This document shows, piece by piece, positions 1,421 through 26,395 of a DNA stretch of 64,000 nucleotides (the stretch's first letter is position 1; every line of letters starts with the position of its first letter). The DNA lies in the NCBI GenBank assembly GCA_012026655.1, contig JAAILG010001178.1:1-64000 (forward strand), in the 5' to 3' direction. The DNA is from Hydrolagus affinis (Eukaryota). The notes under the pieces were generated by a model that was not told the origin of the DNA, searched no databases, and saw only the letters and a list, made by a program, of their open reading frames with translations. The translations under genes were made by a program, and so were the position numbers.

Positions 1421-1579
1421 CCTCAAATAAATGTAGGCAGACAAGGCTAGACTTTCCCTCCAGAGCCTCTTCAATTCAAGCTCCGACACCGAGCACATTA
1501 TTCACTCCACCTTGAGCTAGTGCAGAACCTCAGTGTGGTCAACATTTTCAAAAATGGCAGAGAACTCAAGGAGGACAAT

Positions 1580-1875: not shown

Positions 1876-2144
1876 AAGGAGGCAAAGGGAGCCCTGTCAC
1901 AAAGAGATTATGTTGAAAAAGGCTGTGAGCAGAGCAGAAGCCAGACGTGAGGGGCTCAAGTGGGGAGTGGAGGCAAATATGGGTGTAGAGTTGAGTTGAC
2001 TCAGTGAACATTGGCCTAGTTCTTGTTCTAGGTCCAGTTCCAGGACTTTGGATAGGAAAGGCACATTGGAGATGAGCTAATAGTTGGAGATTTGGAGAGA
2101 TGATGGGTAGTATTTTTTGAGGAAATGGTGATGATAGGCTGATT

Positions 2145-2790: not shown

Positions 2791-2801
2791 GTTAACATAA
2801 A

Positions 2802-3356
2802 TTAACATACTGGATCTGAGGACAATGAGGTTTGCTGATCTTCCAAATGTTTGTTGAAAGTTACTGGAATGATTGAAGTGCGTCGTGAGGTTGAGTCACG
2901 TCTTGAGATGATTGAGGGATGTGTTTTTAGTAAAATAGGTTGTGAATTGATGGACTCTTGTTGTAGGCTCATTTTGCGGGACCTTGGGAGGGCTTTTTGT
3001 GCGATTCCTGAGGACTGTGTTGAGTTTGGTGACTGATGCCTTGTTTTTGGGGACACTTGTCTTGAGTTTGGTGACCCAAGTCTTAAACCTGCTGACCCAC
3101 GTCTTGAATCTGCTGACCCACGTCTTGAATCTGCTGACCCACGTCTTGAATCTGCTGACCCACGTCTTACAGTGGCTGATCCAGGTCTGGAAGTTGCTGA
3201 CCCATGACTTGAAATGATTGATTGAGGTCTGGGACTTGCTGACTCACGTTTTAAAATTGTTGACCCAGAGGTTGACTGTTGCCTGTGTAATATTCTCTGG
3301 TCAATTTCTTTTTCTGACTCAAAATTTTCATTAAAATCATCATTTTCATCAATAAC
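2802..3356 (-). CDS. C2CD6: C2CD6 probable exon 15, Ser/Arg-rich tail with RRGSADS repeats
   Basis: ttgtccag acceptor, long open frame; ends at TAA 2804-2802 or splices at CCA|gtatgt (2811) to exons outside the window. Confidence 0.72.
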   Translation of the reverse strand, partial: VIDENDDFNENFESEKEIDQRILHRQQSTSGSTILKRESASPRPQSIISSHGSATSRPGSATVRRGSADSRRGSADSRRGSADSRRGSAGLRLGSPNSRQVSPKTRHQSPNSTQSSGIAQKALPRSRKMSLQQESINSQPILLKTHPSIISRRDSTSRRTSIIPVTFNKHLEDQQTSLSSDPVC

Positions 3357-6300
3357 CTGGACAACAAAAATACACAGATTAGTCATAAATACAAATGTAC
3401 ATATACTACTACTAATAATAATGCTTGCATTTGATATAGCGCTTTTTATGTCTTCTAGATGTCTCAAAGCGCTTCACAGAATATACTGTAAAGTGAATTA
3501 ACTGTATATTTGTGGGCGAAACGCGGCAGCCAATTGCCTGACCATGGGAGCCTCTCCCCATCAGCTTATTGGCTGCACCTAGTGCACACAACAGAGTTAA
3601 TTGATGGTCCAGGACTACATTGATCAACAGATATTATGAGGTATACTACTATATCTAATGATTGATATAATCTAAAAAGGTGTAATTTACAAGGTATGAG
3701 AAAAGGCAGGTAAATGTGATTCAATGGATTACTCTTTCAAAGATAGAGCCCAGACCCAATGGGCTGAATGGCTTTCTGTTCTGTATGGTTCTGTGTTAAA
3801 AATTGGCTCCAAACTTACAGTTTTTGAATTAAATGAGATGCTCCCTGCAATCTAGACAACATTCCTTTTCCTAGATTTATGTTTAGCAAATGATGAGATC
3901 ATTTTATGCAGATGAGATCTATGAATCTGAAAGAGCAAGAATTCAATGATCAATCCATGAAAGAGTAAGGACTATTAAAGTCATTTTTTTTTATCTCTAA
4001 TGTGAAAACCTGTGTATTTTAGTGGATTTCTCTGGTTTCTTTTCCAATTCAAAAAAGGAGAAAATATGAGGGGGAAACAATTTGTACCCAAAAAAAAACC
4101 CACAGGTGAATTGGGTAAAAATCTGCCACTGATTTTAATTTTCTGTCCTTGGAATGCTAGGCAGAGAACATAGGATGACTCTGAACACTTCTTTGACTCA
4201 AATCACGAGCAACAAATAGTACCATACAATGCCATGAGCAACACAGCAGGGTACAGAAGTCACCTGTGAGAGAGCAACTTGCATGTCAATGGGTGTAACA
4301 CATCCCATGGCTGATGAGAAGCCAAGAAAGTTAGAAATTATTTTGCGGAATTTAAAGAAAAACAATCACATTTCATCAAAACGCTGGGTATTCATGGTGA
4401 AAATAGTAACAAATGATACTCACAGTAGATTTGACAAATTCTGAAATCTTTTGTCTGGGCTGTGGAACAGATTTTGCGAAACTTGAGAACAATTTTCTGC
4501 GTGGGAAATATCTTGATCTTGGATGGAAATTGCTTGTACGTTCCAGCAACCGTTTACCAAAGTTACTTATATTCAAATGCTTCTTACTGTCATCTGGGGT
4601 TGCCTGTGATCCATAAATACAATATTCAGACACGAGTGCGCAAGCGCAACCTAGTCTGGTTGTAGGACACTCTCTGACACCCTTATTGTCCTCACCTATT
4701 CATTATTAAATATAATTATTAAGGGCAAGATAAGGAAATGGATTTGAAAATGTTTGGAGGGAAGGAAGTCGAAGGCAGCAGCTAGTGGAAGCTTGGTCAA
4801 AATGAATGGTGCCTCTGGGATCTGTACTGGAACCCTCCTGGTCCTTGTACATATTAATAGTTTGGATTTGCAGACCTAGAGTAAGGTTGTTAAAGATATA
4901 AATGACAACAAGTTAAGGGGTTTGTGTTAGGGTTTGTAAGAGCTTTGCTAACCCTGGGCAGATAGGGCGGGATACATAAAGCAGGCCGATGTTTGTTGAG
5001 GAAACTGAGGGTTGCAATAGGTCACAGCAGTAGGTTAAGTGGAGACTGTGGGGAATTTGTAAGTGAGAATGAGGATTTTGAATTAGATCCACAAAGGTTT
5101 GGAGAACCAGAGGAGCTGATGAAAGATGGGGTGATAGGCCACATTGCCTGATATGGGAGCAGACATGGGATGCAGAGATGTGGATAGCCTGCAACTTGAG
5201 TAGGCGAGGCCTGGGGGTCCAGGGAGAAGAGCATTAGTATAGACAAACCTGAATGTGAGGAAAGTGTGATGAGAGTCTCATCAGCTTGGAGGAATAGCAG
5301 AGGCAGCAATATTACAAAGTTGAGAGACAGCTGAGCAAGTAAGGGCCCAGATGTGGAGCTTGAAAGACATTTGGAGGGTCAAACAAGACACTGAAGTTCT
5401 GCTTAGTTATACATAAGAACGTAAGAATTAGGAGCAGGAGTAGGCCATTCAGCCCTTGAGCCTGCCTCACCATTCAATAGGATCATGGCTGATCTTCTAA
5501 TCTAACTTTACCTACCTGCCTTATCCCCATATTCCTTAATCCCTTTATCCACAAGAAATCTATCAATCTCAGTCTTGAATATGTTCCTCTGGAGTAGAGA
5601 ATTCCATAAATTTATTATCCGTTGAGTGAAGAAGTTTTTCCTCAACTCAATGCGAAATGGCTGACCCCTTATTGTAAGACTTTGATCCCTGGTTATAGTT
5701 TCTCCAACCAAGGGAAACATTCTCCCACTATCTACTCTGTCGTACCCCTTAATAATCTTATAGGTTTTCATAAGATCACCTCTGATTCTTTTATATTCTA
5801 GAGAATATAGAATATTCTCGGCCTAGATTTAGGCCTAGATTGCTCAACCTATCCTCATAGCTCAGCCCAGGTACCAACCTAGTGAATCTACGTTGTACCC
5901 CCTCCAAGGCGAGTACATCCTTTCTTAAATAGGGAGACCAAAACTGCACACAATATTGAAGGTGTGGTCTTACCAGGGCCCTATACAGGGCAGCAAGACT
6001 TCCCTACTTTTATATTCTAACCCCTTTGTAACGAACGCCAACATACCATTAGTCTTCGTAATTGCTTGCTGTACCTGCAAACTAATTTTCTGTGACTGTT
6101 GTACAAGGGCACCCAAGTCTCTCTGAATACTAACATCATCTAGTCTCTCCCATTCGAAAAAATAATTTGCTCTATTGTTTTTACCACCTAGGTGGATGAC
6201 TTCACACTTCCCTACATTATACTTCATCTGCCACCTACTTGCCCACTCACTTAGCCTATCTATATTGCATTGCATTATTTTAATGTCATCCTCGGTGTTT

Positions 6301-9300
6301 ACTCTCCCTCCTAGTTTAGTGTCATCCATGAATTTGGATATTTTAGGTTTGATGTCCTCATCTAGATCGTTGATGTAGATTGTAAATAGTTGAGGCCCAA
6401 GCACTGATCCTTGTGGCACTCCACTAGTCACATCCTCCCAATCTGAGAAGGACCCATTTATCCCAACTCTCTGTTTTCTTCCGTTAGCCATTCTTCAATC
6501 CATGCTAATATATTCCCCTTAATTCCATGGGTCCTCATCTTGTGGATCAACCTTTTATGAGGCACCTTATCGAATGCCTTTTGGAAATTTAAATACACTA
6601 CATCTACTGATTCCCCCTATCTAATCTACTTGATACGTCGTCAAAAAATCTAAAAGATTTGTCAGGCATGACTTTCCTTTTGTAGAGCCATGTTGACTCT
6701 GCCTAATCATATTGTGGTCCTCTAAATATCCTTAATTAAGGATTCTAGAATTTTCCCTACCACTGATCTCAGACTAACTGGTCTATAGTTCCCCATCTTT
6801 TCTCTCCCTCCCTTCTTAAATAGTGGTGTGACATTTGTGATCTTCCAATCAATGGAAACTGTTCCAGAATCCAAAGAATTTTGGAAGATCAGACACAAGG
6901 CCTCCACTACCTCATGAGCCACCTCTCTGAAAATCCTAGGATGCAAACCTTTAAAACCCTAGGATGTTAGTTGACTCATCACTCATCAAAACAGTATTTG
7001 TATTTTCACTCTATAGAGTTTAACCACAGCCTGCTGTAATTTGAGATTACCTGACTGGCTACTTCATTGTCATTCTCTCGTTATTTATTATTTTTTTCTG
7101 AGGAATAGGAAAACAGCATGAAGGATTCAGCCTGTCAAGCCTGTTTGTTCAATCATGGCAGATATTTTAATCTCAAAGCCCTGCCTTTTCACCATATCCC
7201 TCATTACCTTCTACTGTACAAGTATTTGTCCATTTCTCTTGTAAACATCCATGTCAATTCTGCCTCTACACTTTCTGTGGCAGAACATACCACCTGTTAA
7301 TAATAATGATCCTTGCATTTGATATAGTACTTTTCACATATTCTGGACGTCTCAAAGCACTTCACAGAATATACTGTAAAGTGAATTGACTGTATATTTG
7401 TGGGCAAAATGCAGCAGCCAATTGCGCACAGTGTCCCTGGATTGAAACAGTTGTGGATTGAAATGATCAATTTTATTAGAGAGGTTGATATTAAGCGTGT
7501 GAAGTAAGGAAACGTGCCCAAGGTTTCGCCCTGATCAGCCTGGATTCGAACAGAGTCTCACGCTTGTAAGGTGAATGCTCTAACCACTGAGCTACAGGAC
7601 TCCACCTCTTGACAACAGATTATAAATTGAAGTTGTTGTTGTTATTGATGAGAGAAATGCTGCTTGACCTCAGTTCTAACTATATTAATTTAGAATTTAA
7701 GCCTCGCTCCTCATACCCCGTAATGAATTTCTCTACCAAAGGAAAGAGTGGAACATCTTGTTGTCAATCCTATTCATTATTTTTTAAATGCTTGCCCTAA
7801 CCCCAGTGTGTAGCAGTAAAAAGAAATAATCGAATATCTGTTGTCAATAGGAATAAACAAACTCAATACTTGTTAACTACAAGATTTGTTAACTACAACT
7901 ACAAGATTGTAATGAACTTACCGAATATGTATTCGCTGAGGACACTCTTAATGATAGTGTTGAGAGTGATTCACGACTTGGTGTGTCCATCTTCAAATTT
8001 TCTGAGACCTGCGGGCCACTGATTAAAGATGTTTTGAAAAGGACTACTGAACTTTTAATCTCTACAGGCCTCACATCTGATGGTACTGTATAATCATCAG
8101 GAGCGCTCACAAACTGCAAGAGCAATAATCAAAATGATCAATTACCAATACTTAGGTGACTTTGTCAGCTTCAAGATTGTCTGCTGAGCAGCTTCATTGA
8201 CTGCACTCAATTACATGCAGATTAAATATGATTAACCAGCACTTGCTGATCCAGGATTGCAGAGATTCCACCAGAATTTATTAAATTCTCAGAAGTTCAT
8301 CTGTAGTGCTAACAGCAACCAGAAACAATTTCAGGAGACGTCAATCCTTCTTACTTTATTTTGGGCATTCCCTGAAATATGCCCCAAAACTCCTCTCCCT
8401 TCAATCCCTCTGTTTTGCCCTCTCCCTCCCCACTTTCAAATCCTACCTAATGCCCTTCATTTTTGTTCGTGCTTACTATCACCTCCCCCCTCCTTCTTCC
8501 TCTGGCATGGTCAGGACGCTACTCCTTGTGAAAGGCACTATATAAATGGAAGTTTTTGTAGTTGTTGTAGTATTCCTGGTCATATCACTTTACATTTAAA
8601 TCTACTTGGTGTTAGCCTGGATCAATTGGTTACACACTCAATTCTGTATCAGAATGGATTCAAGCAGTAGAACGTGACTTTGAACTCACAAATCTAGATT
8701 CCCCCAAGTGCAGTATTATGTCCCTGCATGGTTCAAAAGGTGATATTGAAGGTATTGATTGTAGGAACAAGGGGCATTTTGTTATTTTGGTCAGCCAACT
8801 CCACCGCCCGCATAATCACCCGCACCAAGCTTCATACCCCGATTCCCTAGTCTTTGCCAAACTACACTGGCTCTCTGTCACAGAGTGGATCGACTTCAAA
8901 ATTCTCACTCTTGTGTTTAAATCCCTCCACTCCTCAGCATGTCCCTACCTCTCTAACCTTCCTCTCTCCTCACAGGAGTACCCGCTGCCTCAACTCTACT
9001 GGGTCTGGCCTCCTCCTTGTTCCCCAAATCCTCCACTCTAACATCGCCAGCCATGCTTTCAGCCACTAAACCCCAAAATCTTGGAATACCCTCCCACAAC
9101 CCTCTTCACCTCACTCCCTCCTTTTCAATCTTCAGGCTCCTTTCTCTTTGACTGAGCTTATGGTTACCTCCCCACTCCCCCTGGTTTGGCCTCGAGCTCC
9201 GCCATTATGAAGTACTCAGAGATGCCACCCAGCATGGAGGGTGCTATATAAATGCAAGTTGGTGTTAGTGTTGTACATTATAGAATTCCATAAGAATATA

Positions 9301-12300: not shown

Positions 12301-15300
12301 TGGTACTCATGTATTGACCATAAAAGGTGAAATACTTTGTGGATTCAAATGCAGTTTGCGAAAGAACACTTAAAAAGCCTACTCAGTGAGGTTGTAGCAA
12401 AGGATATTGATTGAGGATCATCACCAGAAAAAAAAAGGGGAGTCAGTTGTAATTCTTGTTTGCAGAGATGGTTGTTGAAATAGGGTGTGCCTTATCACAA
12501 GTGGAATGCATTTAAAAGGTTTATGGCATGGGACATAGTATATAATCTTTTGAGGTACCTGTACTTACCTTCTTACAATCCAATAGCATAATATAATATT
12601 AATATAATATAATATAATTTTCTACTCAGTGATGTACCTGAAATATCCAGAGAACTCATAGAAAAACCAGCTGTTGCTTCAATTAACATATTCCCTGCCT
12701 GAAATGAAGGAGAACCTGGAATGAGTCTTCAGACTTAAGATGCTTTTTTGGTCTAAAAGCATACAACAACAATTTGCATTTATATTGGGCCCTTCGTGCG
12801 AGCAGCATCAAAATGGTGAATCTTACTGAATCTGTTATCCCTTTGCTTCTCTCCTGAATTTACAGTTTAGGGGTTTATCAGATTGATAAACCAACTCTTA
12901 TCCATCAGACATACTGTATTCTTGTCATAGGAGAACCGAGCTCTACTACTAGATTGAATGGAATAATCACAGATAAAAAAGATGCTGAGTTAACAGTTTG
13001 GCATTTTCAACGTTCTGTTCTTGGGAAATATTGAGTTGCAAAGGCAGAGGTCCATCATAGGATACCATTTTCAGAGCTGTGTGACTGCTTTTGATGTTAA
13101 CGACCACTAACACTAAAGAACACTAACACTGATGCCCAATCCTGGTAAATAACTGGTGAACTGGTCCAATTTATATCTGAACCTGCACTCATTTGTGGGG
13201 TGAATGACTTGGGAAAGGTACAGAAAGTCGTAGATTCTCTATTCTATTCTGTTCACAAGCTAAGCATTATTTTAGGCTTTAAAGTGCACTTGATAATCTT
13301 GCCTGGGAAGTTTTCTTTTCGAATCTGGACCACCTATCAGTTCTTCCGGTTTTCTTTAGGATCAGCCTTTCCATATAATCCATCCGTTGTTCTTGAGTTT
13401 TCTGTCTGTCACATTCATTCCTCAAGTATTCCAGTCTGAAATAAGAGGTTTTAGAGACAAATTTCACAGAAGAGACCAGGATCAAGGTATCTCTTTAGGA
13501 AGGGAGACTCACTTTGAAGAGGAGTTAGGCATAGAAACAGTGTTATTTTGTGTAGCAGACAAGACGTCTTGATGCATGTCGAATAATAACAACAATAATA
13601 ATAATTATTGCCCAGCGAGTTTTTCGGATCTGGAATACATTACCTGAAAGGGTAGTGAAAGCCGATTCAATAACAACTTTTAAGAGAGAAGTAGATGGGT
13701 ATTTGGGGAGCACAAGATAATAATAACGATAATAACAATCCTTGCATTTGATATTGCAGAGCTATGGAGAGAAAGTAGGCCAGTGGGATTGAGTTGGACA
13801 GCTCTTTTCGGAGCCAGCGCAGACTCGATGGCCACGTTATTATTGATTCTATAATAATCAACCTTGCATTTGATTTAGCGCTTTTCAAGTCTTCTAGATG
13901 TCTGAAAGCACTTCACAGAATATGCTATAAAGCAATTTGACTGTATATTTGTGGGTGAACATTGCAACAAATTGCGCACAGCAGTGTCCCACAAACAGTC
14001 ATAAATTGAATTACCGATTTATTATTGTTGTTTTGAGGGATTATTATTAGTTAGGCGTGTGGAGTAAGGAAGGTTTGCCCAAGGTTTTGCCCTGCCGGGA
14101 ATCAAACCCAGGTTTCGCATTTGTAAGATGAGTGCTCTAACCACTACAGGACCACAAATGAAATGGTTCGGAAGGTGAAGGGGGCAATGGAGTTAAGGAT
14201 GGAGGAGAGGGAGTTGTGGAGGAAAGGGAGCGAAGAGGGTAGATCGGTTTGCGAGAGGCAGAGGGGTAGGAGTTGTGATGACTTCAGGGCAGCAGAGACG
14301 GAGCGGGAGGAGATATTATTTTACCAACGGAGGTAGTGGTGGTAGAGGGTTGAGTAAGGGGAATTGTATGGGGGTGTAAAAGGAGATTAATTGGTGGACG
14401 GAACTGGCTTTAACGGTGATGGTGATGTCTGAGATGGTGAGAACCCGGGTAATCACCAGCTCAAGATGGTGGCCATGGATGTGGGTGGTGGAGTGGATAT
14501 AGAAAGAGAGGATGAGGGAGGGAGGAGAAGTCAGCAGAGGTAGAGCAGGAGGGGGTGAAGTGGAGGTTGAAGTCACCTAAGATGAGGGGGCATTCAGAAC
14601 AGAGGAAGAGGAAAGACAGGAGGGTGGAGATGTCCAAGGGGAAGGTGGGGGAGGGCTTGGGGGGAACGGTAGACAAGTAGCTAACAACCATACAAATAAT
14701 CCTTTTAATAATCCCTACATTTTGAGTTGGTTCTCTGGACTTTTTTTGGCCCCTTTCTGCTGAGGTTATTCAGTAGTATGAGATGCCGTCTGGCATGGAG
14801 GGCATTGAAGTTGTTGCTGTTGTTGTCCTCGATTCTTCTTGATTTCTCTATCGCCTTCAACACTGTCAATGATGATATCCTTCTCCAGCTACTCTCAGTT
14901 CCACCTTCTTGCTTCTGTCCTCTCCTCTTATTACTCTTATCTATCCCAGTGTTTCTGCTTCATCTCTTTTAATTGCTTCTCCTCCCATTTCCACACTGTC
15001 CCACTGTAGCATTGAGTGGGGCTCTATTCTTAGTCATCCCCTTTTCAACATCTACATGCTCCCACTTGTTGATGTTATCTGCACGCAGTGGTTAATATCC
15101 ACATGTATGTGGATAACACCCAATTCTGTCTTTTTGCCTTCACCCTCAATTCGAGGACCATTGCTTATTTGACGGTTGCCTGTTAGACATCAAGCACTGG
15201 ATGTCAACATAAGGAGCCTTTTCCTGAACTTTACAGTATATTCTACAACATGGTAGGATAGGTTCATAGAATCACAGAATCATAGAATTGTACAGCACAC

Positions 15301-18300
15301 AAGGAGGCCAGTTGGCCCATTGTGTCTGTGTCTGCTCTTTGAAAAGAGCTATCCAAATCAAATTCCACTCCCCTGGTCTCTTCCCTATAACCCTGCAAAC
15401 CAAATAATTATCTACTTCTCTTTTAAAAGTTGTTATCGAATCAGCTTCCATCGCCCCATCACCCTTGATTCTCCCGACATAAAAGGTAGGCACTGTATCA
15501 AATTAAAGGATTTTAAACATTATTTGGCTGCTGTAAACAACAATTTGGTATTGACAATTTGACATTGGGGGTAAATTTGGATGAGCAGGAAATATAAACA
15601 GGAGTGGGAGATACCTGACTGTCAGTGTGAATCCTAAGGCAGACAGAATCTAATGCGTGACTCAATCCAAAAAAGGGATGATGATCAATAAATTCAATAA
15701 TAAATTGTAAACTTTTATGGTGCAGAATGTTGTTAGGAAACATTTTACGCTGTGGTTGCAAAGCAAACCTGAATAAAGATTACAAATACTTGCCTTTTTC
15801 TCGAGTGTATCAGGTTCATGATTTTTGGGGGCACTCTAGTGAAGGTATCCCCAGGGTCAGGTGGTTGCTCCACTTGCTGTTCTCTCTCTTTGCTTAGGGG
15901 GCCCACAGATATGCGTAGTTCTTCAGGCAGGAACTCCGGGTATGGCATGAGCTTGTAGTTAACCACATTACTATATAAGAGAAGTTCAACATCGAAAAGC
16001 ATGGAATGAGGAAGGACCATTCCGTTCCTGAAGCTCAACCCTTTCTGACAAAACATGTACAGCATCTACTCTTTCCTAATTCGTTTAATCTTGCATGAGA
16101 GGCAAATTATTTAGCATTTCCCAGATTTATCCTTGGCACTCTTCTCTGAACTCCCTCCCAGTGTATCCACATCCTTGAAACATAAGTCAAATTTTGCAAA
16201 CAAAATACTAATTTTCACAAGTAACATCCATTGTAATCTCCAGTTTCATGCATCATCTCGCAGTGGAAAAGCCAGTGGAACACAAATTGTTTGTGTGCGC
16301 GTGTGTGTACGTGTGTGTACAGCTTGTAGTTTACAGACTTTGGAGTCCTATAACTCAGTGGCTAGAGCACTCACCTTGCAAGCGAGAGACCTAAGTTAAA
16401 TTCCTGGCAGGGTAAAACCTTGGGCAAGTTTCCTTGCTCCACATACCTGATAATAATCCCTCGAAAAAACCCAATAATAAATTGGTCATTTCAATCCGTG
16501 ACTGTCTGTGGGACACTACTGTACACAATTGGCTGCTGTGTTTTGCCCACAAATATACAGTCAATTCACTTTACAGTATATTCTGTGAAGCACTTTGAGA
16601 CACCTAGAAGATGTGAAAAGTGCTATATCAAATGCAAGGATTATTATTATAAATGCTGGCTTACGAATGTGTTATAATTTGTTAAAGTCACATGGAGTGA
16701 TGCATCAACTGGGTGCTAAGGCCAACTGATTTTTGTGGTCAGCTGGGTGAGTTACCCAAACAGTAACATGTCACTATGTTTAACGTATCCAAACAGACAG
16801 CTCCACATATCTATACACCTACACATAGAACTTTCCCTGTGAGTTGAATGAAGTGTGCATTCTCTCTAGAGGAGTGACAGCCAAGGTTTGGTTGCAACTA
16901 ATTACTGCAGTACCTATACTGTCTTCATCTAATAACCCTCAACGTTGAATGCCTCACATTGGAAATTTTTGAGTACCCACTCCATAATTGGGAGGAGCAA
17001 TCAAATCCATGCTTTTACCTGGATCATCAAAGGAGTAGTTCATATTTATTTTGTCTTCTAGCACAGGATCATTTCTTTAGTACAGTATTGGTAAATGTCA
17101 TTTACTTACTAGATATTGTCTTTCCTATTATCCTGTGGAGGAATTCGGAGGAAGATCGATTGTTCATTGATTTTTTGTTTGTCTTTTTCCTTTTGCTTCA
17201 GCTGATATGAAGAGTAAGCCATTTAAAACATACAGCACATGCTTTGAGGTAACTACATTCCATGCTCATTATAAGGCACTCCTCAGAATTCAAGCATTTT
17301 ACATACAAGTCAATAATTATAATAAAATGTGCAACATATATAAGTGTAAATAATCAATCAATATCCAACAACATTAAGTGAATAATAGAAATACTTAAGA
17401 TGTGGACAGACAGACAAAATTCAACTGTAGGAAGTTAGCTCTCATCCAATCTGTCAGGACAGTGGTAGTCCTGGAGTCGAGGGTAGAGACAAAGAGATAG
17501 AGTTGGGTGTCATCCGCACATGTGAAAGTTAACTCCATGTCTGCGGATGATGTCACCAAGTGGGAGCATATAGATGTTGAAAAATAAGGGGCCAAGGACA
17601 GAGTCCTGGGAGACGCCATAGGTGACAGTGCGGGGGCCGGAAGAGAAACCATTGGTGGTGACAAAGTGTAGGCAATGAGAGAGGTAGGCAAAGGCAGGTC
17701 TGCAGAGATTGAGGAGGGAGGAAAGGCACTGTAGGAAGATGGCATGGTCGACAGTGTCGGAAGGCGGCGGAGAGGTCAAGGAGGACAAGGAGACAGAGAT
17801 GTGATATGAAAGGTGTTATATAAGTGTAATTTTGTTGTTGTATTCTTATGTACTTATTCTGCTCTCCCCCACTTGCTCTGCCTTCTGCTCTATGGTGCCT
17901 TGGTTTGCATTCAGGCCTCCTTCCCCAGACTTCTCCCTCATCCAATGTAATAGGTATATTGTAGCTGTTGGACAGGACCAGTGCCTCTTTCTCTACCTCT
18001 ATGGGTTTCTACTACCATGCTGGCTATCAATCGCACAATCCTGTTCCTCTACCTCTCTATGTGGCTTGGCTATGTTCTGAAGTAAAACGTCCAAATAGTT
18101 CATTCCCTTCCTTCTGGAGTGTCTCTAACACTCCAAATCAAAAACCCTGAGCCAGAATGACTCAAGACTTTCTAGCTTCTACTCTTCTAAAGTTTAGGAT
18201 TATTTTAATATATATTTATATTTACAAGGTTTTAGCTTTGCCTTGTATATTGTTCATTTATTTTCCCCTTAATCTACTTTACTATTAACAATTTCAGGGT

Positions 18301-21300
18301 AAATAGGTAAACAAGTAATTTCACACCTTTAATCCCTTGCTCACACTCCTTAATACTGTACGTAACACCTACTCAACACCTACTGCCTCAGGAATGTGAC
18401 CTTTTGTCTAGGCTCTAGCTACTTTTGTCTTTCCTTTACAAGGACATTGAAACAAGTTCTCACCTGCACCTCCTTCCCTCTCTGCACCAAATTCCCACTT
18501 GCCTAATTGCCTAACAGAATTCTCACTCTGTTCCACGTCACTCAGTCCCAACAACAACAACAACAACTTGCACTTATAGAGCGCCTTTCACATCGGGAGG
18601 ACGTCCCAAGGCGCTGCACAGGAGGCGTGTGACCCGAGCTGGGAGGGGAGTGTTCGGGAGGGGGTAAAAAACGTAAGGGAGGTCGAAGAATTAGGGGGGG
18701 AACAGAAGGCACGGTCGAAAAGGAAAGTCTTCAAACTGGCCTTGAAAGAGGAAAGGGAGAAAACAAAGCGGAGGGATGGAGGGATGGAGTTCCAAAGGGT
18801 GGGAGCGGAAAAACTGAAGGCCCGGCCTTTGATGGTGGGGCGGTTCGGGCGGGGGGCTTGGAGCAGGCTGAACGGAGGGACCGGGTGGGCTTGCAGGGGG
18901 AGAGTAGATCGGAAAGATAGGGCGCGGCAAGGCCGTGTAAGGCCTTGAAGGTGAGGACGAGGATCTTGAACTCGATCCTCTGGGGGATGGGGAGCCAATG
19001 GAGACGGGCGAGGGTGGGGGTTATGTGGTCGCGGAGGCGGGTGCGGGATAGTACACGGGCTGCAGAGTTTTGGATCATCTGCAGCCTGTGAATGGAGGAG
19101 CTGGGGAGGCCAACAAGGAGAGAATTCCCATAGTCCAGCCGTGAGGTGATGTACGCGTGCACGAGTGTTTCAGCAGCTTGGGGAGTGAGATAATTGCGGA
19201 GCCTGGCAATGTTGCGCAGGTGGAAATAGGCAGTGCCGGTCTAGGCGCGGATGTGGGGGAGGAAGGAGAGTTTGGAGTTGAATGTGATGCCGAGGTTCCT
19301 GACTGGCTTTGTGAGGTGGAGAGTACAGCCTCGGATGTTGATGCTGGCAGCGCCTGATGTGCGGAGGCGCTGGCTTGAGCCAATCAGGAGGGCCTCGGTC
19401 TTGCTCATGTTCAGTCCCACTCAGTCTCACGCTGCTGTGCTCTCTGCTTCTTTGCAAGGTTGGCATGTTCATTAAACTCACACTAGTTGGGGATTTCTTT
19501 TCACGGTGATAAATGGTTAAATGGTGCCACAGGTGGACAACACATGATAACAACTGGGTAATGTATTTGCCACACAAGTGATGCTTCCCCCACAAGATTT
19601 TTAACTGGAACATACCTGATGAGAGAAATTGTATCCAAAGCATCCATAGGCAAAGCTTATTGTCAGCTCAAGGTTACAGACATGCTGAAAAATGTAACAC
19701 CATATTATTATTAGAGGAAGTATGACTCTACTCTTCAAACATTCAAACATATCCCTATCTCTGTCCATATCTTGTCCCACACAGAACAAGGTGCTGAATG
19801 TCATGCATCTCATCATCTGCCTCAGTAGATTATTTTCAAGTTACTTGTCCTTAATTTCAAATTCTTCCATAGACATTTTCCTCCCAATCTGTGAAAACTT
19901 TTAAATATCCTACAGTTCAGCTCAGCCCAGCCAACGTCCTCTGCTTTTCTACTTGTGCTCCACTCACTCCTCTCCACCATTGGAAGTCAAGCTTTTAGGC
20001 AGTCCACCTCTCTCTCTCACATGCACACAGTATTATATCCTTCCCAGTGCCACTAAATGAAATACTTACCAAGTTCTTGATCCCCAGTTCATATTGTTCT
20101 GTGCGTGAAACATTCTGAAATGCAAGCAGACAGTTTTATATCAAAAGCAAACATTATATCATTAATATACACTGTCTATGTAATTATAAATGATAAACAA
20201 ATATTGTGTTTTATAGGAACAAGGGTAGACCCTTCAAGCCTGTTCCGCCATTTAATCGGATCATGGCTGATCTGTACCTCAACTAATGCTTTCAATTCCA
20301 CTTTCCCGCTTTATCCCCATATCCTTTAACATCCTGATACCCTGACCCTAATAACCTGGTAAGCCAGCAAGCGGCAGGGACAGGTGTGAGCCAGTGACCG
20401 GCAGGGACTGTCAGGGGCCAGCGAGTGGCAGGGCCTCAAGGAACCCAAGTGCATGGACATTCGAGTGGGAGACCAAGAAGAGACCCAGATAACCCAAGTG
20501 GAAGCCATGGGTTGAAAATTGCAGTCAAGAAAAGGCGGGAGAGGGAGGTCGAGGACTGGCATGGAAAATGTCAAGACTCTACCTGTACAGCACGTGCCAA
20601 GACCACGCTCAAGATGAGTGGTGACGGCAGTGAGGAGAGGTAGAGTCTCAGCTGTTTCAGCCATTTCAAAATTTTCCACCTGAATAACGGCTGAATCTCG
20701 CTGCCGACCATCACTTCCTGCTGCCATTTTGATGGCCGGCCAGCTGGGCAAGGTAGGTATAGTGAACGTCACTTCCTAGCGCCAGTTTCAAATCCAGCAG
20801 GGAAGGTTAAGTACAGTATATTCAATCATCATTCTGCTACCTTGTCCACCCAGTCCCTGGTAAGCCATGACCCTCTCCCACTGTGCTGTCTGGATTCCTT
20901 GATTTGGATTCCCCCACCAGAGGAAATAGCTTTTCTGTATCTATCTTGTCAAATCGCTTTATCATCTTAAATACCTCAGTCAAGTCACCCCTCCACCTTC
21001 TAAACTCAAGGGATACAACCCAAGTTTACACAGGCTTTCCTCATAACTTAACTCTTTTAGACATTCTGGTGAACCTGGGCTGTCACCCACTCCAGAGCCA
21101 ATATATCTTTCCTGAGGTGTGGTGCCCAAAACTGAATGCAATACTCCAGATGGAGTCTGACTAACACTCTGTACAGCTGAAGCATAATTTCTTCCCCTTT
21201 GTATTCCAAACTCATTGAGATAAAAAGCCACCCACCTTTTTGATTACGCTTTGCACCTGGGAATTAGTTTTTAGTGATTTGTGGATATGGAAGGCCAAGT

Positions 21301-24300
21301 TTCTTTGCTGCTCCACAGTTCTTAATTTCTCCCCATTAAGAAAATATTCTGCTTTATCTTTTTTTGGTCCATAGTGGACAACCTCACACTTCTCTACATT
21401 GAACTCCAACTGCCACAGTTTTGCTCACTTACTTAATCTGTCTAAATTCCTTTGTAACTTCCTATTTCCATCTACATAATTTACTGAACCTCCGATTAAT
21501 GTTGTCTGCAAGCTTGGATATAAAACTTTCTATTCCTTCATCTCTATGGAAAGGTTTACTATCTGCACCCTCTCACTGATCATAAATTCTCCTCACCAGA
21601 GGATAACATGGTCTTGATCCAACACTGGTCTTCAACTGGGATAACTTTACCAAAAAATGCCTTCAATCAGCTTGGTAGTCTAGATAGAAACTTGGTCACA
21701 CAGCTCTGCAAAATTATTAGGCGTAAACTCTGGGGTTTACAATGATCCTCTATAATGGTATGGGCCATATGGGCTATTCAACAACAACAACAACTTGCAA
21801 TTTATATAGTGCCCCTTGCACAAAGTAGCGTTCATCTTTCCTTCTACCTCTAGCATGGTCAGCAAGCATCAATTAATGTAAAATTTACCCGAATAATATT
21901 TATCAAGTGGAGTTCAGTGTGACCAAGAAGCCTGTGTAAAGCAGAGTGCCGTTCAATTTCAATCAGCTCCACTGTGATCCTGTTCCTTTCATCATTTATA
22001 CGTCTTGGAACCTAACAAGTTAGGAACAACAACAACAAAATTAAATTTGCATAGTGCCTATCATGTCGGGAATATGTCCCAATGCCCTGAACAGACAGTA
22101 TTCCAGACCTTTTCTGGGAGTAGGGTTTGGGGATGGTGGAGGGCTGGGGGCTTGGGAAGGAGATTGATTGAAGCACAGTCAAAGAGAAAGGTGTTGAGGG
22201 GGGTCTTGAAAGGAGCAAGGGATGGGGAGAGTTGGAGGGACTGTGGATGGAGTTCCAGAGGGTGTGGGCAGATTGACTGAAAGTCTGCGCACCAATGGTG
22301 GGGCGGTAAGGGAGGGGTACGCAAAACAGACTGGAGCCTGCTGAGTGGAGGGTGTGAGTAGGTGGTAGGGGGTTAGGAGGTCGCAGAGGTAGGGGGCAAT
22401 GAGGCCATGGAGGGCTTTGAAGGTGAGAACTAGAATCTTGAACTCTATCCTCTATGTGATGGGAAGCCAGTGGAGTCGAATGAGGGTGATATGGTCACAG
22501 AGTCTAGTACAGGAGAGGACATAATCTGCAGCCTTTGGAGGGAGGAATTGGGGAGGCCGACATGCAAGGAGTTTGCTTAGTCAAGCCTGGATGGTATGAA
22601 TGCATATATGAGAGTTTTGATGGCAGGTGGTGTGAGACAGTGGCGGAGCTGGGCAATGAGGACAAGGTGGGGGAAAGCAGAGTAGGTCATGGCACAAATG
22701 TGGAGTAGAAAGGACAGTTGAAGGTAGAACAAGACGCCAAGATTCCAGACTGACTTAGTGATGTGGAGTGTGCATCGATGGATGGTGATGCTGAGGTGTG
22801 GAGGCTGATGGGAGCCAAATAGGATGGCCTTGGTCTTGTTGATGTTCAATGAAAAAAGTTAGCTTTCATCCAGGACTTGATGTCTGACAGACAATTTTTT
22901 GACTGACTTTCACCTTATGGCTGTTTGTAAGACCTTGTTGGTGCAAATGGCTGTTATACAAGCCTACAAAAACAGTCACCACACTAGCCAGGTTACCTCA
23001 AATGTGATAGGGTACTGTAAAACATTCTTCCTTTACCTATCTTTACCAGTATGGTACCTGGAATGAGGGACTTCAATTATCAGGAGAAGCTAGATAGATA
23101 AGATTATTTTCCTTGGAGCAAAAGAAGCTTAACAGAATTTTTCAAAATTATCAAGGGATTCGATTGGGTGAACAAAGAAAAACTATTTCCACTGGCATGT
23201 GGGTCGGTAACCTGAGAACACCAATTTAAAATAGTTGTTAAAAGAAACAGAGGTAAGCGAGGAGACATTTTTTCACCCAGTGAGTTGTTCAAATCTGGAA
23301 TGCATTGCCTGAAAAGGTGGTGAAAGTCGATTCAATAACAGCTTTCAAGAGAGAAATAGAAAGTGATTTGGGGAGGACAGGTTTGCAGGGCTACGGGGAG
23401 AATGTGGGGGAGCGCGATTGATTTGGACAGCTGTTTTTCAAAGAGCTGGCACAGACATGATGAGCCGAATGGCCTCCTTCTGTGCTGTATAGTTCTATGA
23501 TTCTATGATATCTTGAACATCCAGACTTAGTTTTGCAATGTGCGAGACAATTCTATACCTGAACAACGAAGTACTTGACTTCTTCGAAATGAATAATCAT
23601 TTTGGATTTCTTCAACTTCAAGATATCCTTAACGTGGTGAGGCATCGTACATTTCTGTTTATCCCCTATAGTGATGCGGATCATCAGCTGCATTTTCCTT
23701 CTCAGAACCACTGCAATGGTAAATTCCTTAAAGAAAATAATCCCAATTTTTCAAAGATCCCAGTTATCCTTGAGCAAGTCACTGATTACTTAACGGGTGT
23801 CTCCTTTCATCTGCTCCATGGCTTGCAGTGGGGTCCATAGGCTGTTTGGTGCCGTGCCCACATGAGGAACATGAAAAGACAGGTGGCAAAGTAAAGTGAA
23901 TTCAGAAAAGACTTTAGGTCAATGGTGGTTTGAAGGGAGTGGGTAGTGAGCAATGGGAATAAAGATTATAGTAATGAAGTGATAGTATGAGATGGCCTTG
24001 TCATGGATGGTGAGTCTGAGTTGGTGAAGCCACTCCTCACTCTTGTGTTTAAATGCCTCCACTCCACTCGGCATCCCATATCTCTCTAACCTCCTCTCTC
24101 CTCACAGTACTACCGGTTGCCTCCGCTCTACTGGTCTGGCCTTCTCCTTGTACCCCAAATCCTCTGCTTCACCATTGGCAGCCATGCTTTCAGCCACTAC
24201 GCCCCAAAACTTTGGAACTTCCTCCCTCAACCCCCTTGCATCACCCACTCCTTTCCCATCTTCATGTCGTACATGAAGAGCTTTCTCCACGATGGCGCTT

Positions 24301-26395
24301 ACCTGCAGGAACTGGCGCTCTGCTGCCCAGGAACTGCAGGTAAGCAGACATAAATTGTTAACGACCCAAAGAAATTGTCTGAAACTGAAAAAAAATTATC
24401 TGAGATGTCAAAGACAAGGGTTGACAGTCTAATAATATATAAAGCCCACCTCCAATTGTTTCTACCCATTCATTCTCTGCCTGTGTGTTCTGTACTTTTA
24501 GGAGCTTTTATCTGGAGGGTTGTGAGTTGCCAATGGAGCTGTATCTGTACTTACAGGAATCACACCCCCCCAAATCATTTACTGTTGTCCAAAGATGAGC
24601 TCTTTGAAGACTGATCTTTTGAAAATATTATATTGAGAAAATCAGCAGAAAGTACCTCCAGACAGTGAAATCTGCAAGCTGAGTAAAAGGATACGTGTAT
24701 TGGTAAAGTCCTGGCAGTGTTTGATATGAAATGATATGCAACCAATCTGCAACCAAAATAGTTAAAAATCAGACAACAGAAACTTTACAGACACCGTCCA
24801 CACACCTCAGACCTGGGCCCCAGAAATTATGTCCCTACCTCTTTGAGACACTTAGGTACAGACTCTACAAATTATGCTGTTCAGTAAGGTGTCAGGTTTG
24901 ATTATTGATCTGAGTTAGTTGCTTTTAGCTGGAGCAGTGGTGTGCGCGGGTTGTGTGTGTGTGTGTGTGTATTTCACCCACAAATACACAGTCAATTCCC
25001 TTCACAGTATACTCTGTGAAACTCTTTGAGACGTCTAAAGTTGTGTAAAGCGCTATATCAAATGCAAGGATTATTAGTATTATTATAATAAACGAATGTC
25101 CAAAAAAAAACTGGAGTCCATTATAATATGAATGACTCAACTCACCCATCATCCACGATTCTATAGTATCTATGGTTTGATATCTACAAGCTGCAGGAAT
25201 GAACTAACTTACTGGCTCATCTTCAGTTACAAGCTCGAAATCAGATGGGTTGAGAAACTCTGTATGTTCTTCCTCATCTTTCTTTAATTTGGAACTTCCC
25301 ATGAAGCTCTGCAATAAGAGTGAAATCTCAGCATGAGGGTAATGTATACATCGATTACAAAACCAGAATGAGCAATAATAACAACATCAAAATTACATTT
25401 GTATAGCGCCTTGCACATCAGGAGGATGTCCCATGGCAATGCATTGGAAAAATACCTATACAGTAGTTAAAATATTATTTTTGAACTTGTCTATGCTGAT
25501 ATTTATACTCCACATAAATCTCCACCCATACTCATCCCTTCTCTGTATCTCTCTCCTTCCCATACTTGTGTATTCCCTCCTCGCTTATGTTTTCTTTTGT
25601 ATTCAATGTTTTATGTTAGCTGATCTTATCCTGAGCAACAGTGGAGTGCTACTGGCTTCTGAGGAGATGCCTTAGGATTCTTGCTACTGAATGTTGTTAA
25701 GAGATCTGTGCTGGCAGTTTGCAGTCAAATGTTAAAATCCCACAATACTTTTTCAAGCTAAAATTCTAGTAAATAATTGTACTATGGAGTCCTGCAGCTG
25801 AGTGGTTAGAGCAGTTGCCTTGCAAGCAGGAGACCTGGGTACAACTCCAGGCAGGGCGAAACATTGGGCAAATTTCCTTACTCCACATGCCTGATAATAA
25901 ACTTGGCTGACACGTTTCGCCCAGAAATATACAGCCAATTCACTTTACAGTATATTCTGTGACATGCTTTAAGATGCCCAGAAATCGTGGAAAGCACTAT
26001 ATCAAATGCAAGGATTATTATTATTACTGATTAAAATGGTGATTGTGGACTGTGCTGTGGGCAAAATGGTGACATGCTTGCCTACAGTCAGTGCACATGA
26101 TAGGAATTGCCCATGAAGTTCTTTAAGGCATCTCAACATATAGGCATCGTATCAAATTGAATCACTTTGATAATAAATCTAGATTTACCTGGAGAAGTCC
26201 AGGTTGCTTGTCTTTGTTGGAGTAAGCTTTAGTGCTTGAAGACGCATTGACATTGGTTCTTCGAGATGAAGTTTCTGTGATTTTAGGCACTAGCCACTTG
26301 GAGCTTAATCTTTCATTGATGTCAGTTGTGCGGTTCTGTTGGGATGTGGTGGATACTGGAATTATATTTGCCAATTTCTCTCTGAATGGTAACAT
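2802..26395 (-). CDS. C2CD6: C2 calcium-dependent domain-containing protein 6 (ALS2CR11 / CatSper-tau); 15 coding exons, ~720 aa; 3' end uncertain
   Basis: Assembled exons give [14 protein letters not shown]...IRITIG..KCT...[29 protein letters not shown]...[24 protein letters not shown]...YPEFLPEEL, matching recalled human C2CD6 motifs (IKFDEVKYFSVQVPRR, FSYGNFGYGFSHQLK, YPAFL). Phases consistent throughout. Human C2CD6 and NBEAL1 are both on 2q33. Confidence 0.88.
3089..3168. repeat. 21-bp coding minisatellite (ctgctgacccacgtcttgaat, ~3.8 copies; degenerate units extend ~3020-3210)
   Basis: Directly visible tandem units starting at 3089, 3110, 3131, 3152. Confidence 0.95.
3413..3540 (-). 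mobile_element. SINE 3' half
   Basis: Same body and tail as full-length copies. Confidence 0.8.
4424..4603 (-). CDS. C2CD6: C2CD6 probable exon 14 ([10 protein letters not shown]...EFVKST)
   Basis: cacag acceptor, gtgagt donor, 180 nt open. Confidence 0.7.
4915..5400 (-). mobile_element. Old, degraded L2 fragment
   Basis: Remnants ETLI, S.LQV, LHWFSK..FKIL. Confidence 0.65.
5410..6950 (-). mobile_element. CR1-clade LINE 3' fragment (RT core and 3'UTR), frameshifted
   Basis: [35 protein letters not shown]; 3' end ggcctactcctgctcctaattcttacgttcttatgt. Confidence 0.93.
7298..7602 (-). mobile_element. tRNA-derived SINE (full length)
   Basis: ggagtcctgtagctcagtggttagagc head through (ATT)n tail. 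Confidence 0.9.
7922..8113 (-). CDS. C2CD6: C2CD6 probable exon 13 ([16 protein letters not shown]...ANTYS)
   Basis: ttgcag acceptor, gtaagt donor, 192 nt open. Confidence 0.7.
8820..9265 (+). mobile_element. L2 3' fragment (older subfamily)
   Basis: [17 protein letters not shown]; tail gctatataaatgcaagttg. Confidence 0.8.
9314..9345 (-). CDS. C2CD6: C2CD6 probable micro-exon 12 ([11 protein letters not shown])
   Basis: Pyrimidine-rich acceptor, ATG|gtatgt donor, 32 nt, phase 1 to 0 restores the frame. Confidence 0.55.
9412..9668 (+). mobile_element. SINE 3' part with internal tandem duplication (atatactttaca x3)
   Basis: SINE body and tail match. Confidence 0.82.
10620..12032 (+). mobile_element. 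CR1-clade LINE 3' fragment with internal deletion of the RT core at ~11315
   Basis: [20 protein letters not shown] joined directly to VQRDLGV..., [13 protein letters not shown]1 3' end. Confidence 0.92.
12638..12698 (-). CDS. C2CD6: C2CD6 probable exon 11 ([20 protein letters not shown])
   Basis: Strong acceptor, CAG|gtacat donor, phase 0 to 1; no homology support. Confidence 0.55.
13303..13435 (-). CDS. C2CD6: C2CD6 exon 10 ([28 protein letters not shown]...KTSQ)
   Basis: tttcag acceptor; helical segment resembling recalled human RLEKMKKEY...NYLE; donor probably CAG|gcaaga. Confidence 0.75.
13852..14153 (-). mobile_element. tRNA-derived SINE
   Basis: Head, body and tail match. Confidence 0.87.
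14160..14690 (-). mobile_element. L2 ORF2 endonuclease-region fragment
   Basis: LILGDFNLH and [13 protein letters not shown] (APE endonuclease motifs). Confidence 0.75.
14826..15210 (+). mobile_element. L2 RT fragment
   Basis: [22 protein letters not shown]. Confidence 0.75.
15794..15970 (-). CDS. C2CD6: C2CD6 exon 9 ([23 protein letters not shown]...HSRK)
   Basis: ctcttatatag acceptor, GC donor AAG|gcaagt, phase 2 to 2. Confidence 0.83.
16340..16650 (+). mobile_element. tRNA-derived SINE (full length)
   Basis: Head, body and tail match. Confidence 0.9.
17110..17201 (-). CDS. C2CD6: C2CD6 exon 8 ([30 protein letters not shown])
   Basis: AG acceptor, gtaagt donor, 92 nt, phase 0 to 2. Confidence 0.87.
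17415..17800 (-). mobile_element. L2 RT fragment
   Basis: [31 protein letters not shown]. Confidence 0.88.
18549..19412 (-). mobile_element. Young CpG-rich L2 3' fragment
   Basis: [42 protein letters not shown]; (GTT)n tail. Confidence 0.92.
19616..19684 (-). CDS. C2CD6: C2CD6 exon 7 ([23 protein letters not shown])
   Basis: tttcag acceptor, gtatgt donor, 69 nt; family-typical YGxFGYxFSHQ motif. Confidence 0.92.
20070..20114 (-). CDS. C2CD6: C2CD6 exon 6 ([15 protein letters not shown])
   Basis: tttcag acceptor, gtaagt donor, 45 nt. Confidence 0.85.
20210..21545 (-). mobile_element. CR1 3' fragment interrupted by a ~500-bp insertion (20367-20855)
   Basis: [31 protein letters not shown]1 3'UTR at 20210-20350. 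Confidence 0.82.
21889..22011 (-). CDS. C2CD6: C2CD6 exon 5 ([41 protein letters not shown])
   Basis: AG/GT sites, 123 nt. Confidence 0.9.
22025..22895 (-). mobile_element. L2 3' fragment
   Basis: [21 protein letters not shown]; (GTT)n tail. Confidence 0.87.
23050..23510 (+). mobile_element. CR1 3' end
   Basis: 3'UTR with ggcctccttctgtgctgta and (ttctatga)n tail. Confidence 0.82.
23559..23710 (-). CDS. C2CD6: C2CD6 exon 4 ([21 protein letters not shown]...[12 protein letters not shown])
   Basis: 152 nt, phase 1 to 0, CAG|gtatag donor. Confidence 0.88.
23711..24694 (-). other. U12-type (minor spliceosome) GT-AG intron of C2CD6
   Basis: 5'ss GTATCCTTTT matches RTATCCTTT; branch-site-like TTTTCTTTAAG ~17 nt before the AG; this junction restores a gap-free C2 alignment. 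Confidence 0.8.
24695..24746 (-). CDS. C2CD6: C2CD6 exon 3, start of C2 domain ([17 protein letters not shown])
   Basis: ttgcag acceptor, U12-type donor GTATCCTTTT, 52 nt. Confidence 0.85.
25213..25308 (-). CDS. C2CD6: C2CD6 exon 2 ([32 protein letters not shown])
   Basis: ttgcag acceptor, gtaagt donor, 96 nt. Confidence 0.75.
25786..26026 (+). mobile_element. tRNA-derived SINE (internally deleted)
   Basis: Head and tail match. Confidence 0.82.
26189..26395 (-). CDS. C2CD6: C2CD6 probable first coding exon ([10 protein letters not shown]...GLLQ)
   Basis: ATG in AAAATG context, CAG|gtaaat donor, 69 codons. Confidence 0.65.

What the first reader, a model, noticed from the sequence alone, without database searches (positions are those of the whole stretch)
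2860..3260. Minisatellite-built tandem PKA-consensus array in the CatSper-tau tail
Seen: a 21-bp repeat encodes [28 protein letters not shown] within a longer 7-aa-period run ([14 protein letters not shown] ... [21 protein letters not shown]), with extra basic-x-S sites nearby (KRES, RKMS, RRDS, RRTS). Established: RRxS is the PKA consensus, and cAMP/PKA signalling drives sperm activation and acts upstream of CatSper in mammals. The identical core units point to recent expansion. Inference: a length-variable multisite phospho-switch on a sperm-channel subunit, possibly under sexual selection.
Basis: partly seen in the sequence, partly recalled or inferred. Interest (0 to 1): 0.7.

Follow-up and report, generated by a model that had tools for sequence, protein, structure and literature searches.

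The report
Repeat-built kinase array in CatSper-tau tail
In a cartilaginous fish, a predicted exon of the sperm calcium-channel subunit CatSper-tau holds a 21-base tandem repeat spelling four back-to-back protein-kinase-A-type target motifs, and three shark species carry different repeat arrays of the same motif in this protein, so the tail likely acts as a multi-site phosphorylation dial, though no phosphorylation has been shown.

Summary
A 21-bp repeat (13 units in register, 3275-3003, minus strand; 80-nt perfect core) lies in predicted exon 13 of a chondrichthyan C2CD6/CatSper-tau gene. Exons 3-10 match shark and ray homologues; exons 11-13 rest on splice signals and frame only. Every unit keeps its serine, four read RRGS, and the array has no stops or indels, which favours coding. 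A strong donor-like site at 3248 could splice most of it out. The exon is probably internal, not the C-terminus. New from relatives: bamboo shark and two catsharks have apparently unrelated 37- and 44-residue tandem units in the same tail carrying RRxS plus a hydrophobic residue (28 of 29 anchored 44-mer copies intact, x variable). Two batoid species and 22 amniote proteins have no RRxS arrays, although many have other repeats. Best reading: a PKA-type, possibly GSK3/CK1-relayed, multisite charge switch, amplified more than once in cartilaginous fish. Phosphorylation, length polymorphism and sexual selection are untested. The array shows no overall purifying selection, and PKA control of CatSper is disputed in mammals. 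A neutral coding minisatellite remains a strong rival. New variant of a known kind; interest 0.42.

The parts
3003..3275 (-). 21-bp / 7-codon tandem array, 13 units in register; Ser in slot 5 of every unit; Arg or Lys at -3 in 10 of the 12 units tabulated
   Evidence: the upstream 13th unit read from the sequence
3087..3170 (-). Homogeneous core: four RRGS units, 80-nt perfect run 3089-3168; model Ser573, 580, 587, 594
2811..3356 (-). Predicted exon 13 of C2CD6 (phase 0 start). Ends at a moderate donor after 2811 (internal exon, favoured) or reads to the stop at 2802-2804. Acidic patch (net -7), then basic array (net +12)
   Evidence: prediction, no transcript
3357..3385 (-). Acceptor of exon 13: branch-point-like element, polypyrimidine tract, CAG
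   Evidence: consensus recalled
3242..3250 (-). Strong donor-like 9-mer inside unit 1 (last exon base 3248, phase 1, 6 of 7 consensus matches); possible alternative 5' splice site
2874..2981 (-). Post-array basophilic sites RKMS, RRDS, RRTS (model Ser636, 661, 667)
4424..4603 (-). Predicted exon 12 (phase 0-0, basic, net +10); no significant homology
7922..8113 (-). Predicted exon 11 (phase 0-0, Ser-rich); no significant homology
13303..13435 (-). Exon 10; homology-supported; GC donor
15794..15970 (-). Exon 9; homology-supported; GC donor
17110..17201 (-). Exon 8; homology-supported
19616..19684 (-). Exon 7; homology-supported
20070..20114 (-). Exon 6 (45 nt); 9-11 of 15 residues identical to four homologues
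21889..22011 (-). Exon 5; Pfam CTSRT E 7e-7
23559..23710 (-). Exon 4; Pfam CTSRT E 1.5e-6
24695..24746 (-). Exon 3; start of the C2 region; 10-12 of 17 residues identical
25213..25308 (-). Predicted exon 2; 8-12 of 32 residues identical
26189..26395 (-). Predicted first coding exon (ATG 26395)

Best explanation
The 21-bp repeat lies in a predicted coding exon of this cartilaginous fish's CatSper-tau (C2CD6) gene and encodes a likely disordered, arginine-rich run of serine motifs that would act as a graded multisite phosphorylation switch, most likely written by PKA. SHOWN: the repeat; the C2CD6 gene upstream on the same strand; an in-frame exon model; four RRGS plus two further RRxS motifs; and separate RRxS-bearing tandem arrays in shark orthologues. 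INFERRED step 1: exon 13 is spliced in with the array translated. INFERRED step 2: when cAMP rises, PKA phosphorylates the slot-5 serines. In the core, the shared slot-1 serine is at -4 of one site (GSK3-primed spacing) and +3 of the preceding site (CK1-primed spacing, recalled), so each unit could take two phosphates, as in Ci/Gli clusters. INFERRED step 3: the phosphates would progressively cancel the +12 charge of the array and loosen its hold on anionic membrane, on the acidic patch just upstream or on a partner, tuning how CatSper-tau targets or organises the channel; copy number would set the threshold. INFERRED step 4: slippage or unequal crossover amplified such sites more than once in cartilaginous fish (7-residue unit here; 37- and 44-residue units in sharks).
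For: Gene: CTSRT hits; exons 3-10 match four shark and ray proteins; the core groups with chondrichthyans at 100/100; 13-exon model, 690 aa, no internal stop, exons 10-12 all ending in phase 0. Coding beyond the 3248 site: of six frames only this one is stop-free across the array. P(no stop given the observed substitution load) is 0.065. There are no indels among about 46 substitutions, where the window's interspersed repeats give 0.118 indels per substitution (P 0.004-0.03). 66 further codons stay open (P 0.03). Slot-5 Ser is kept in 11 of 11 simulated units (P 0.011; 0.024 allowing any slot). Motif: 6 RRx[ST] against 0.66 expected; -4 Ser in 3 of 4 core sites and +3 Ser in 3 of 4; array net +12, 10% hydrophobic, beside a -7 patch. 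Parallel: RRxS inside tandem repeats in 4 of 10 chondrichthyan rows (8, 7, 17 and 2 sites). In the 44-residue unit 28 of 29 anchored copies keep RRxS while x varies (R, P, L, Q) and +1 is V, M or I in 29 of 29. 42 of 43 RRx[ST] in seven chondrichthyan loci have a hydrophobic +1 (background 20%; copies not independent). 3 of 8 hand-called shark repeat families carry RRxS against 0.61 expected, P 0.017. Cartilaginous fish keep CatSper, sNHE and sAC (PMC6660944, passages). Smo and Ci/Gli precedent (PMC3567827 and PMC7119169, passages).
Against: No transcript or phosphosite evidence for this species. Exons 11-13 lack clear homology: post-array summed P 0.015, but a control frame scored 0.029. A donor-like site scoring 6 of 7 lies inside unit 1, and none scoring 5 or more occurs in about 940 nt of exons 2-10. 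Against the consensus pN 0.215 exceeds pS 0.159, so there is no overall purifying selection. Core sites have Ala at +1; only 1 of 6 window sites has V/I/L/M/F. A profile of the shark 44-mer does not hit exon 13, so there is no positional conservation. Narcine (3 rows), Leucoraja (1 row, possibly partial) and all 22 amniote rows have no RRxS in repeats, while turtles and marsupials have long repeats without it: the tail is repeat-prone in general. PKA-to-CatSper regulation is disputed.
Confidence: 0.45

Rival explanations
1. Neutral coding minisatellite: the array is translated, but it is a slippage product tolerated in a fast-evolving disordered tail. The RRxS motifs are incidental or phosphorylated without consequence.
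For: No overall purifying selection. Large repeats without RRxS in marsupials (about 13 to 26 copies) and turtles; no RRxS array in batoids or amniotes. One RRGS unit copied four times explains most of the enrichment (3 distinct contexts).
Against: Slot-5 Ser retention (P 0.011-0.024). Shark units keep R-R-x-S-hydrophobic with a free x position across three species. Family-level excess P 0.017 (families called by hand).
Confidence: 0.3
2. A phospho-array, but written or read by something other than PKA: CaMKII or testis-specific basophilic kinases on R-x-x-S, proline-directed kinases on the three R-x-x-S-P units, or 14-3-3 docking (consensus motifs recalled).
For: R-x-x-S is the common denominator: Arg or Lys at -3 in 10 of 12 units, but Arg-Arg in only 4; units 9-11 have Pro at +1 and units 2 and 4 are R-P-x-S. 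CaMKII is listed in the CatSper domain. ALS2CR11 appears among phosphoproteins reduced in Iqcn-deficient mouse testis (10.1101/2025.03.10.642497, one passage).
Against: The recently homogenised units are precisely the RR-x-S ones, and the shark arrays match the full RRxS-hydrophobic pattern.
Confidence: 0.15
3. Most of the array is intronic: exon 13 ends at the strong donor at 3248 (109-nt exon), and the repeat is a non-coding minisatellite straddling the exon-intron boundary.
For: The 3248 site scores 6 of 7 against 4 of 7 for the donor after 2811; no such site in exons 2-10. No significant homology downstream.
Against: The frame stays open for 146 codons beyond the site, with no indels. Ser retention. 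The repeat begins upstream of the site. Ser-codon periodicity after the array is 11, 6 and 4 by frame. Sites scoring 6 or more occur at 0.52 per kb across the gene span.
Confidence: 0.1

Closest known systems
C2CD6 / CatSper-tau (ALS2CR11; Pfam PF15729 CTSRT)
   Same: CTSRT/C2 core, 54-58% identical to shark and ray proteins and 30-39% to amniotes; long, fast-evolving tail. Complex 3' splicing and tyrosine phosphorylation on capacitation are reported in mouse (10.1101/2021.07.06.451342, passages).
   Different: A 7-residue RRxS array with no homologue in 32 named relatives. The two mouse papers searched (passages) showed no tail repeat or PKA site of this protein.
RRxS-bearing 44- and 37-residue tail repeats of shark C2CD6
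   Same: Same gene, same tail, tandem amplification of one RRxS per unit; RRxS sites in the 44-mer array differ by species (4, 8-9, 17).
   Different: Unit length 44 or 37 versus 7; hydrophobic +1 versus Ala; located 1100-1850 residues in versus about 570; no detectable homology to the window unit.
PKA-primed phosphorylation clusters of Ci/Gli and the Arg-cluster (SAID) switch of Drosophila Smoothened
   Same: RRxS sites with Ser at -4 and +3; repeated Arg-cluster/phospho-cluster modules that could give a graded charge switch.
   Different: No homology; no beta-TrCP-type DSG degron in exon 13; built by a minisatellite; no functional test. It may work like them but is not a member.
Length-variable N-terminus of CatSper1 in rodents (PMC4041144, abstract)
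   Same: Length change in a cytoplasmic region of a CatSper subunit, linked there to sperm competition.
   Different: Different subunit; indels rather than a motif-bearing repeat; there, shorter sequences go with stronger competition. No such data exist here.

Membership tests
C2CD6 / CatSper-tau | CTSRT (PF15729) C2 domain | tested here: met
   Two exons above the curated cut-off of 24.4 bits (29.0 and 30.1)
C2CD6 / CatSper-tau | Groups with named C2CD6 proteins, collinear exons | tested here: met
   Exons 3-10 hit in order; chondrichthyan clade 100/100 in a 23-row tree, long branch
C2CD6 / CatSper-tau | Repeat exon is part of the C2CD6 transcript | tested here: inconclusive
   In-frame model and coding signals, but no clear homology and an internal donor-like site
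C2CD6 / CatSper-tau | Conserved C-terminal FPEV block of long forms | tested here: inconclusive
   Present in shark, ray and several mammal rows; no tblastn hit below E 0.5 in the window; the gene probably runs off the left edge
C2CD6 / CatSper-tau | Testis expression and association with CatSper | not testable with these tools
   Known for mouse; no data for this species
PKA substrate | R-R-x-S/T motif | tested here: met
   6 sites, 0.66 expected; RRXS given as the PKA site in PMC7119169
PKA substrate | Bulky hydrophobic residue at +1 (recalled preference) | tested here: not met
   Ala in the four core sites; 1 of 6 sites has V/I/L/M/F
PKA substrate | Site conserved at the same position in orthologues | tested here: not met
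   No homologous array in the four homologues aligned or by profile; motif class recurs elsewhere in shark tails
PKA substrate | Phosphorylated by PKA in vitro or in sperm | not testable with these tools
   Needs experiment
Ci/Gli/Smo-type PKA-primed clusters | Ser at -4 (GSK3) and +3 (CK1, spacing recalled) of RRxS | tested here: met
   -4 Ser in 3 of 4 core sites (5 of 6 overall), +3 Ser in 3 of 4 core sites
Ci/Gli/Smo-type PKA-primed clusters | beta-TrCP degron (DSG-x2-4-S) or homology to Hedgehog-pathway proteins | tested here: not met
   No DSG in the exon-13 translation; no Pfam family above cut-off for exon 13
Coding minisatellite / VNTR | Head-to-tail unit over 10 bp, multiple of 3, in an open frame | tested here: met
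Coding minisatellite / VNTR | Copy number varies among individuals | not testable with these tools
   One sequence only; no population data

The most novel reading that the evidence does not exclude
Cartilaginous fish have repeatedly and independently turned the CatSper-tau tail into a copy-number-tunable PKA rheostat: 7-residue units here, 37- and 44-residue units with up to 17 sites in sharks. This would give cAMP a direct, evolvable handle on CatSper targeting or nanodomain assembly that amniotes lack, with site number shaped by sperm competition.
Probability: 0.2. Interest if true: 0.75.

Novelty: new variant of a known kind. Interest (0 to 1): 0.42.

Why it matters
How cAMP/PKA reaches CatSper is disputed in mammals, and the function of the long CatSper-tau tail is unknown. 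A channel subunit whose tail has more than once amplified PKA-type motifs offers a concrete, cheaply testable substrate and a natural dosage series (0 to 17 repeat-borne sites across cartilaginous fish). If real, it is an example of tandem repeats building a phospho-rheostat convergently. Its reach is limited: the amniote proteins examined lack the arrays, so it would be a lineage-specific solution rather than an answer to the mammalian question. Two full-text searches showed no paper on C2CD6 tail repeats; most subscription journals are not in that library.

Tried and rejected
Word-index protein searches with exon 13 (4646 candidates, none scored) and exon 4 (13 candidates, none scored) found nothing; this is weak evidence. 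The ESM Atlas gave no usable hit for exon 13. Pfam gave no family above cut-off for exon 13. The cluster look-up for names could not be made; names came. The idea that exon 13 is homologous to the shark 44-residue unit arose from a pairwise score (P 0.002 against P0002) and was rejected: neither of two profiles placed exon 13 among its top 12 rows over 2182 window ORFs. The self-BLAST repeat finder printed nothing and was replaced by a k-mer method. A terminal-exon reading is disfavoured: no AATAAA and one ATTAAA in the 2.8 kb downstream, 75% of which is interspersed repeat, and the conserved C-terminal block is missing. Other reading frames over the array all contain stops. A search for extra phase-0 exons in introns 10-12 gave 9 weak candidates, none adopted. 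Mammalian phosphosites: no mention of C2CD6 in the main text of 10.1101/2025.09.18.677062 or in the one supplement of PMC13588705. bioRxiv supplements could not be seen and may list C2CD6 sites. PMC7504923 is not held, so that study is known only through PMC12167957. Rows left out: 1 unnamed protein of 33, and 3 of 8; the tree used 22 of 32 homologues; one search used 7 of 10 chondrichthyan rows (isoform duplicates dropped). No fold or complex job was run, since a low-complexity tail without an alignment would not be informative.

Full report
1. Observation. Tandem Repeats Finder reports a 21-bp array at 3059-3213 (7.4 copies, score 184, the best of 16 rows in the window). The core unit occurs four times within two mismatches against none in 100 shuffles, and the perfect run is 80 nt. 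In codon register there are 12 units at 3254-3003 and one more at 3275-3255 (sequence). All have Ser in slot 5; Arg or Lys stands at -3 in 10 of the 12 tabulated, and Arg-Arg in four. Exon 13 has 6 RRx[ST] against 0.66 expected, or 3 distinct contexts once copies are collapsed.

2. The gene. Pfam CTSRT matches two upstream ORFs on the same strand. A 13-exon model from 26395 to 2802 gives 690 codons without an internal stop, with two GC donors. A search with exon 4 found 8 proteins. An alignment of four of them retrieved 33 relatives, 32 of them named and used. Exons 3-10 match shark and ray proteins in order. The core is 54-58% identical to sharks and batoids alike and groups with them at 100/100 on a long branch; a chimaera is a reasonable guess, not a result. 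Exons 11-13 have no clear homology. Long homologues end in a conserved block that is absent from the window, and no canonical poly(A) signal follows the stop. Exon 13 is therefore probably internal, ending at a donor after 2811, with the gene running off the left edge. Mouse C2cd6 has complex 3' splicing (passages), and a large acceptor shift in its penultimate exon is noted in 10.64898/2026.06.30.735536 (one passage).

3. Is the array translated? The acceptor at 3356 is strong, and exons 10-12 end in phase 0, which fixes the RRGS frame. Against this, unit 1 holds a donor-like site at 3248 that scores 6 of 7, better than the donor after 2811 (4 of 7); none scoring 5 or more occurs in exons 2-10. 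For coding: only this frame of six is stop-free over the array. Random substitutions at the observed load would leave it open 6.5% of the time. There are no indels among about 46 substitutions, where local interspersed repeats give 0.118 per substitution (P 0.004-0.03). 66 more codons stay open (P 0.03). Slot-5 Ser is kept more often than simulated (P 0.011, or 0.024 allowing any slot), although pN (0.215) exceeds pS (0.159) overall. I put translation of the array in at least one isoform near 0.85-0.9; alternative use of the 3248 site is possible.

4. Relatives. Tandem repeats are common in C2CD6 tails. RRx[ST] inside repeats occurs in 4 of 10 chondrichthyan rows and 0 of 22 amniote rows: Chiloscyllium has 8 in a 44-residue array, S. 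canicula 4 in the 44-mer plus 3 in a 37-mer, S. torazame 17 in the 44-mer, and a second S. canicula locus 2 in an 80-mer. Narcine and Leucoraja have none, and marsupials and turtles have long repeats without RRxS. In the 44-mer, 28 of 29 anchored copies keep R-R-x-S, x varies among R, P, L and Q, and +1 is always V, M or I. Across seven loci 42 of 43 sites have a hydrophobic +1 (background 20%; copies are not independent). Three of eight hand-called repeat families carry RRxS against 0.61 expected (P 0.017), and the 16 copies of a 61-mer in S. torazame carry K-R-F-S-L. A profile of the 44-mer does not recognise exon 13, so the window's 7-mer looks like a separate expansion.

5. Mechanism. Inferred, not shown. 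The array is 84 residues, net +12, 26 Ser/Thr, 10% hydrophobic, next to an acidic patch of net -7; disorder is inferred from this composition. In the core, the slot-1 Ser is at -4 of one RRGS site and +3 of the one before (3 of 4 sites each). PKA sites RRXS priming GSK3 at SXXXpS are described for GLI3 (PMC7119169, passages). PKA priming of GSK3 and CK1, and graded neutralisation of Arg clusters in Smoothened, are described in PMC3567827 (passages); the +3 spacing for CK1 is recalled. The likeliest working model is a graded charge switch: cAMP rises, PKA and then relay kinases load the array, and the tail lets go of membrane, the acidic patch or a partner, tuning CatSper targeting or organisation. 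Cartilaginous fish retain CatSper, sNHE and sAC (PMC6660944, passages). Caveats: Ala at +1; PKA-to-CatSper control is disputed (PMC12167957, passages); the search for elasmobranch sperm cAMP/PKA work listed nothing specific among 12 titles. Confidence: best 0.45, neutral minisatellite 0.30, another kinase or reader 0.15, intronic 0.10.

6. Comparison and novelty. The gene is a member of the C2CD6 family. The array works like a Ci/Gli/Smo-type cluster by spacing but is not a member of that system, and it passes only part of the PKA-substrate test. Length evolution of a CatSper subunit under sperm competition is known for rodent CatSper1 (PMC4041144, abstract). Searches for C2CD6 with 'tandem repeat' (1 paper, unrelated use) and with phosphorylation and capacitation (40 papers, 30 listed by title) showed no description of these arrays. 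Papers seen as passages; abstract only; one supplement.

7. Verdict. Observation confirmed; interpretation partly supported and strengthened by the shark parallel, but wholly untested in function. New variant of a known kind, interest 0.42. The boldest reading not excluded is convergent, copy-number-tuned PKA rheostats on CatSper-tau in cartilaginous fish (probability 0.2, interest 0.75).

Noticed in passing
window 33400-63500, minus strand: A BEACH-domain gene (PH_BEACH and Beach Pfam hits at 45022-49391; WD40-like exons near 33400-38100) lies head-to-tail upstream of C2CD6. The name NBEAL1 is recalled, not from a call.
   Followed up: partly
window 15794 and 13303, minus strand: Two consecutive introns (9 and 10) are modelled with GC donors. 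The first is required by frame and homology; the second is weaker.
   Followed up: partly
P0004/P0012 and P0009/P0013/P0014: Both catshark species appear to have at least two C2CD6-like loci on one chromosome-scale contig, about 81% identical over the first 690 residues with divergent tails. One paralogue has the large RRxS array and the other mostly lacks it.
   Followed up: partly
P0009 residues 1927-2930: A second array in S. torazame: a 61-residue unit, about 16 copies, each with K-R-F-S-L, whose start resembles the 44-mer.
   Followed up: partly
P0021, P0023, P0026: Marsupial C2CD6 tails carry large Ser/Lys-rich repeats of about 25-26 residues. Sarcophilus has 27 [RK][RK]x[ST] motifs inside them but no RRxS.
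   Followed up: partly
window 1-2791: About 75% interspersed repeat, with LINE-like ORF remnants (L2-like by recall) starting about 11 nt after the exon-13 stop; no further C2CD6 exon found.
   Followed up: yes
window 12040-13300: Stretch in intron 10 with several 40-60-codon minus-strand ORFs and no homology to the four proteins tested; no phase-0 exon candidate.
   Followed up: partly
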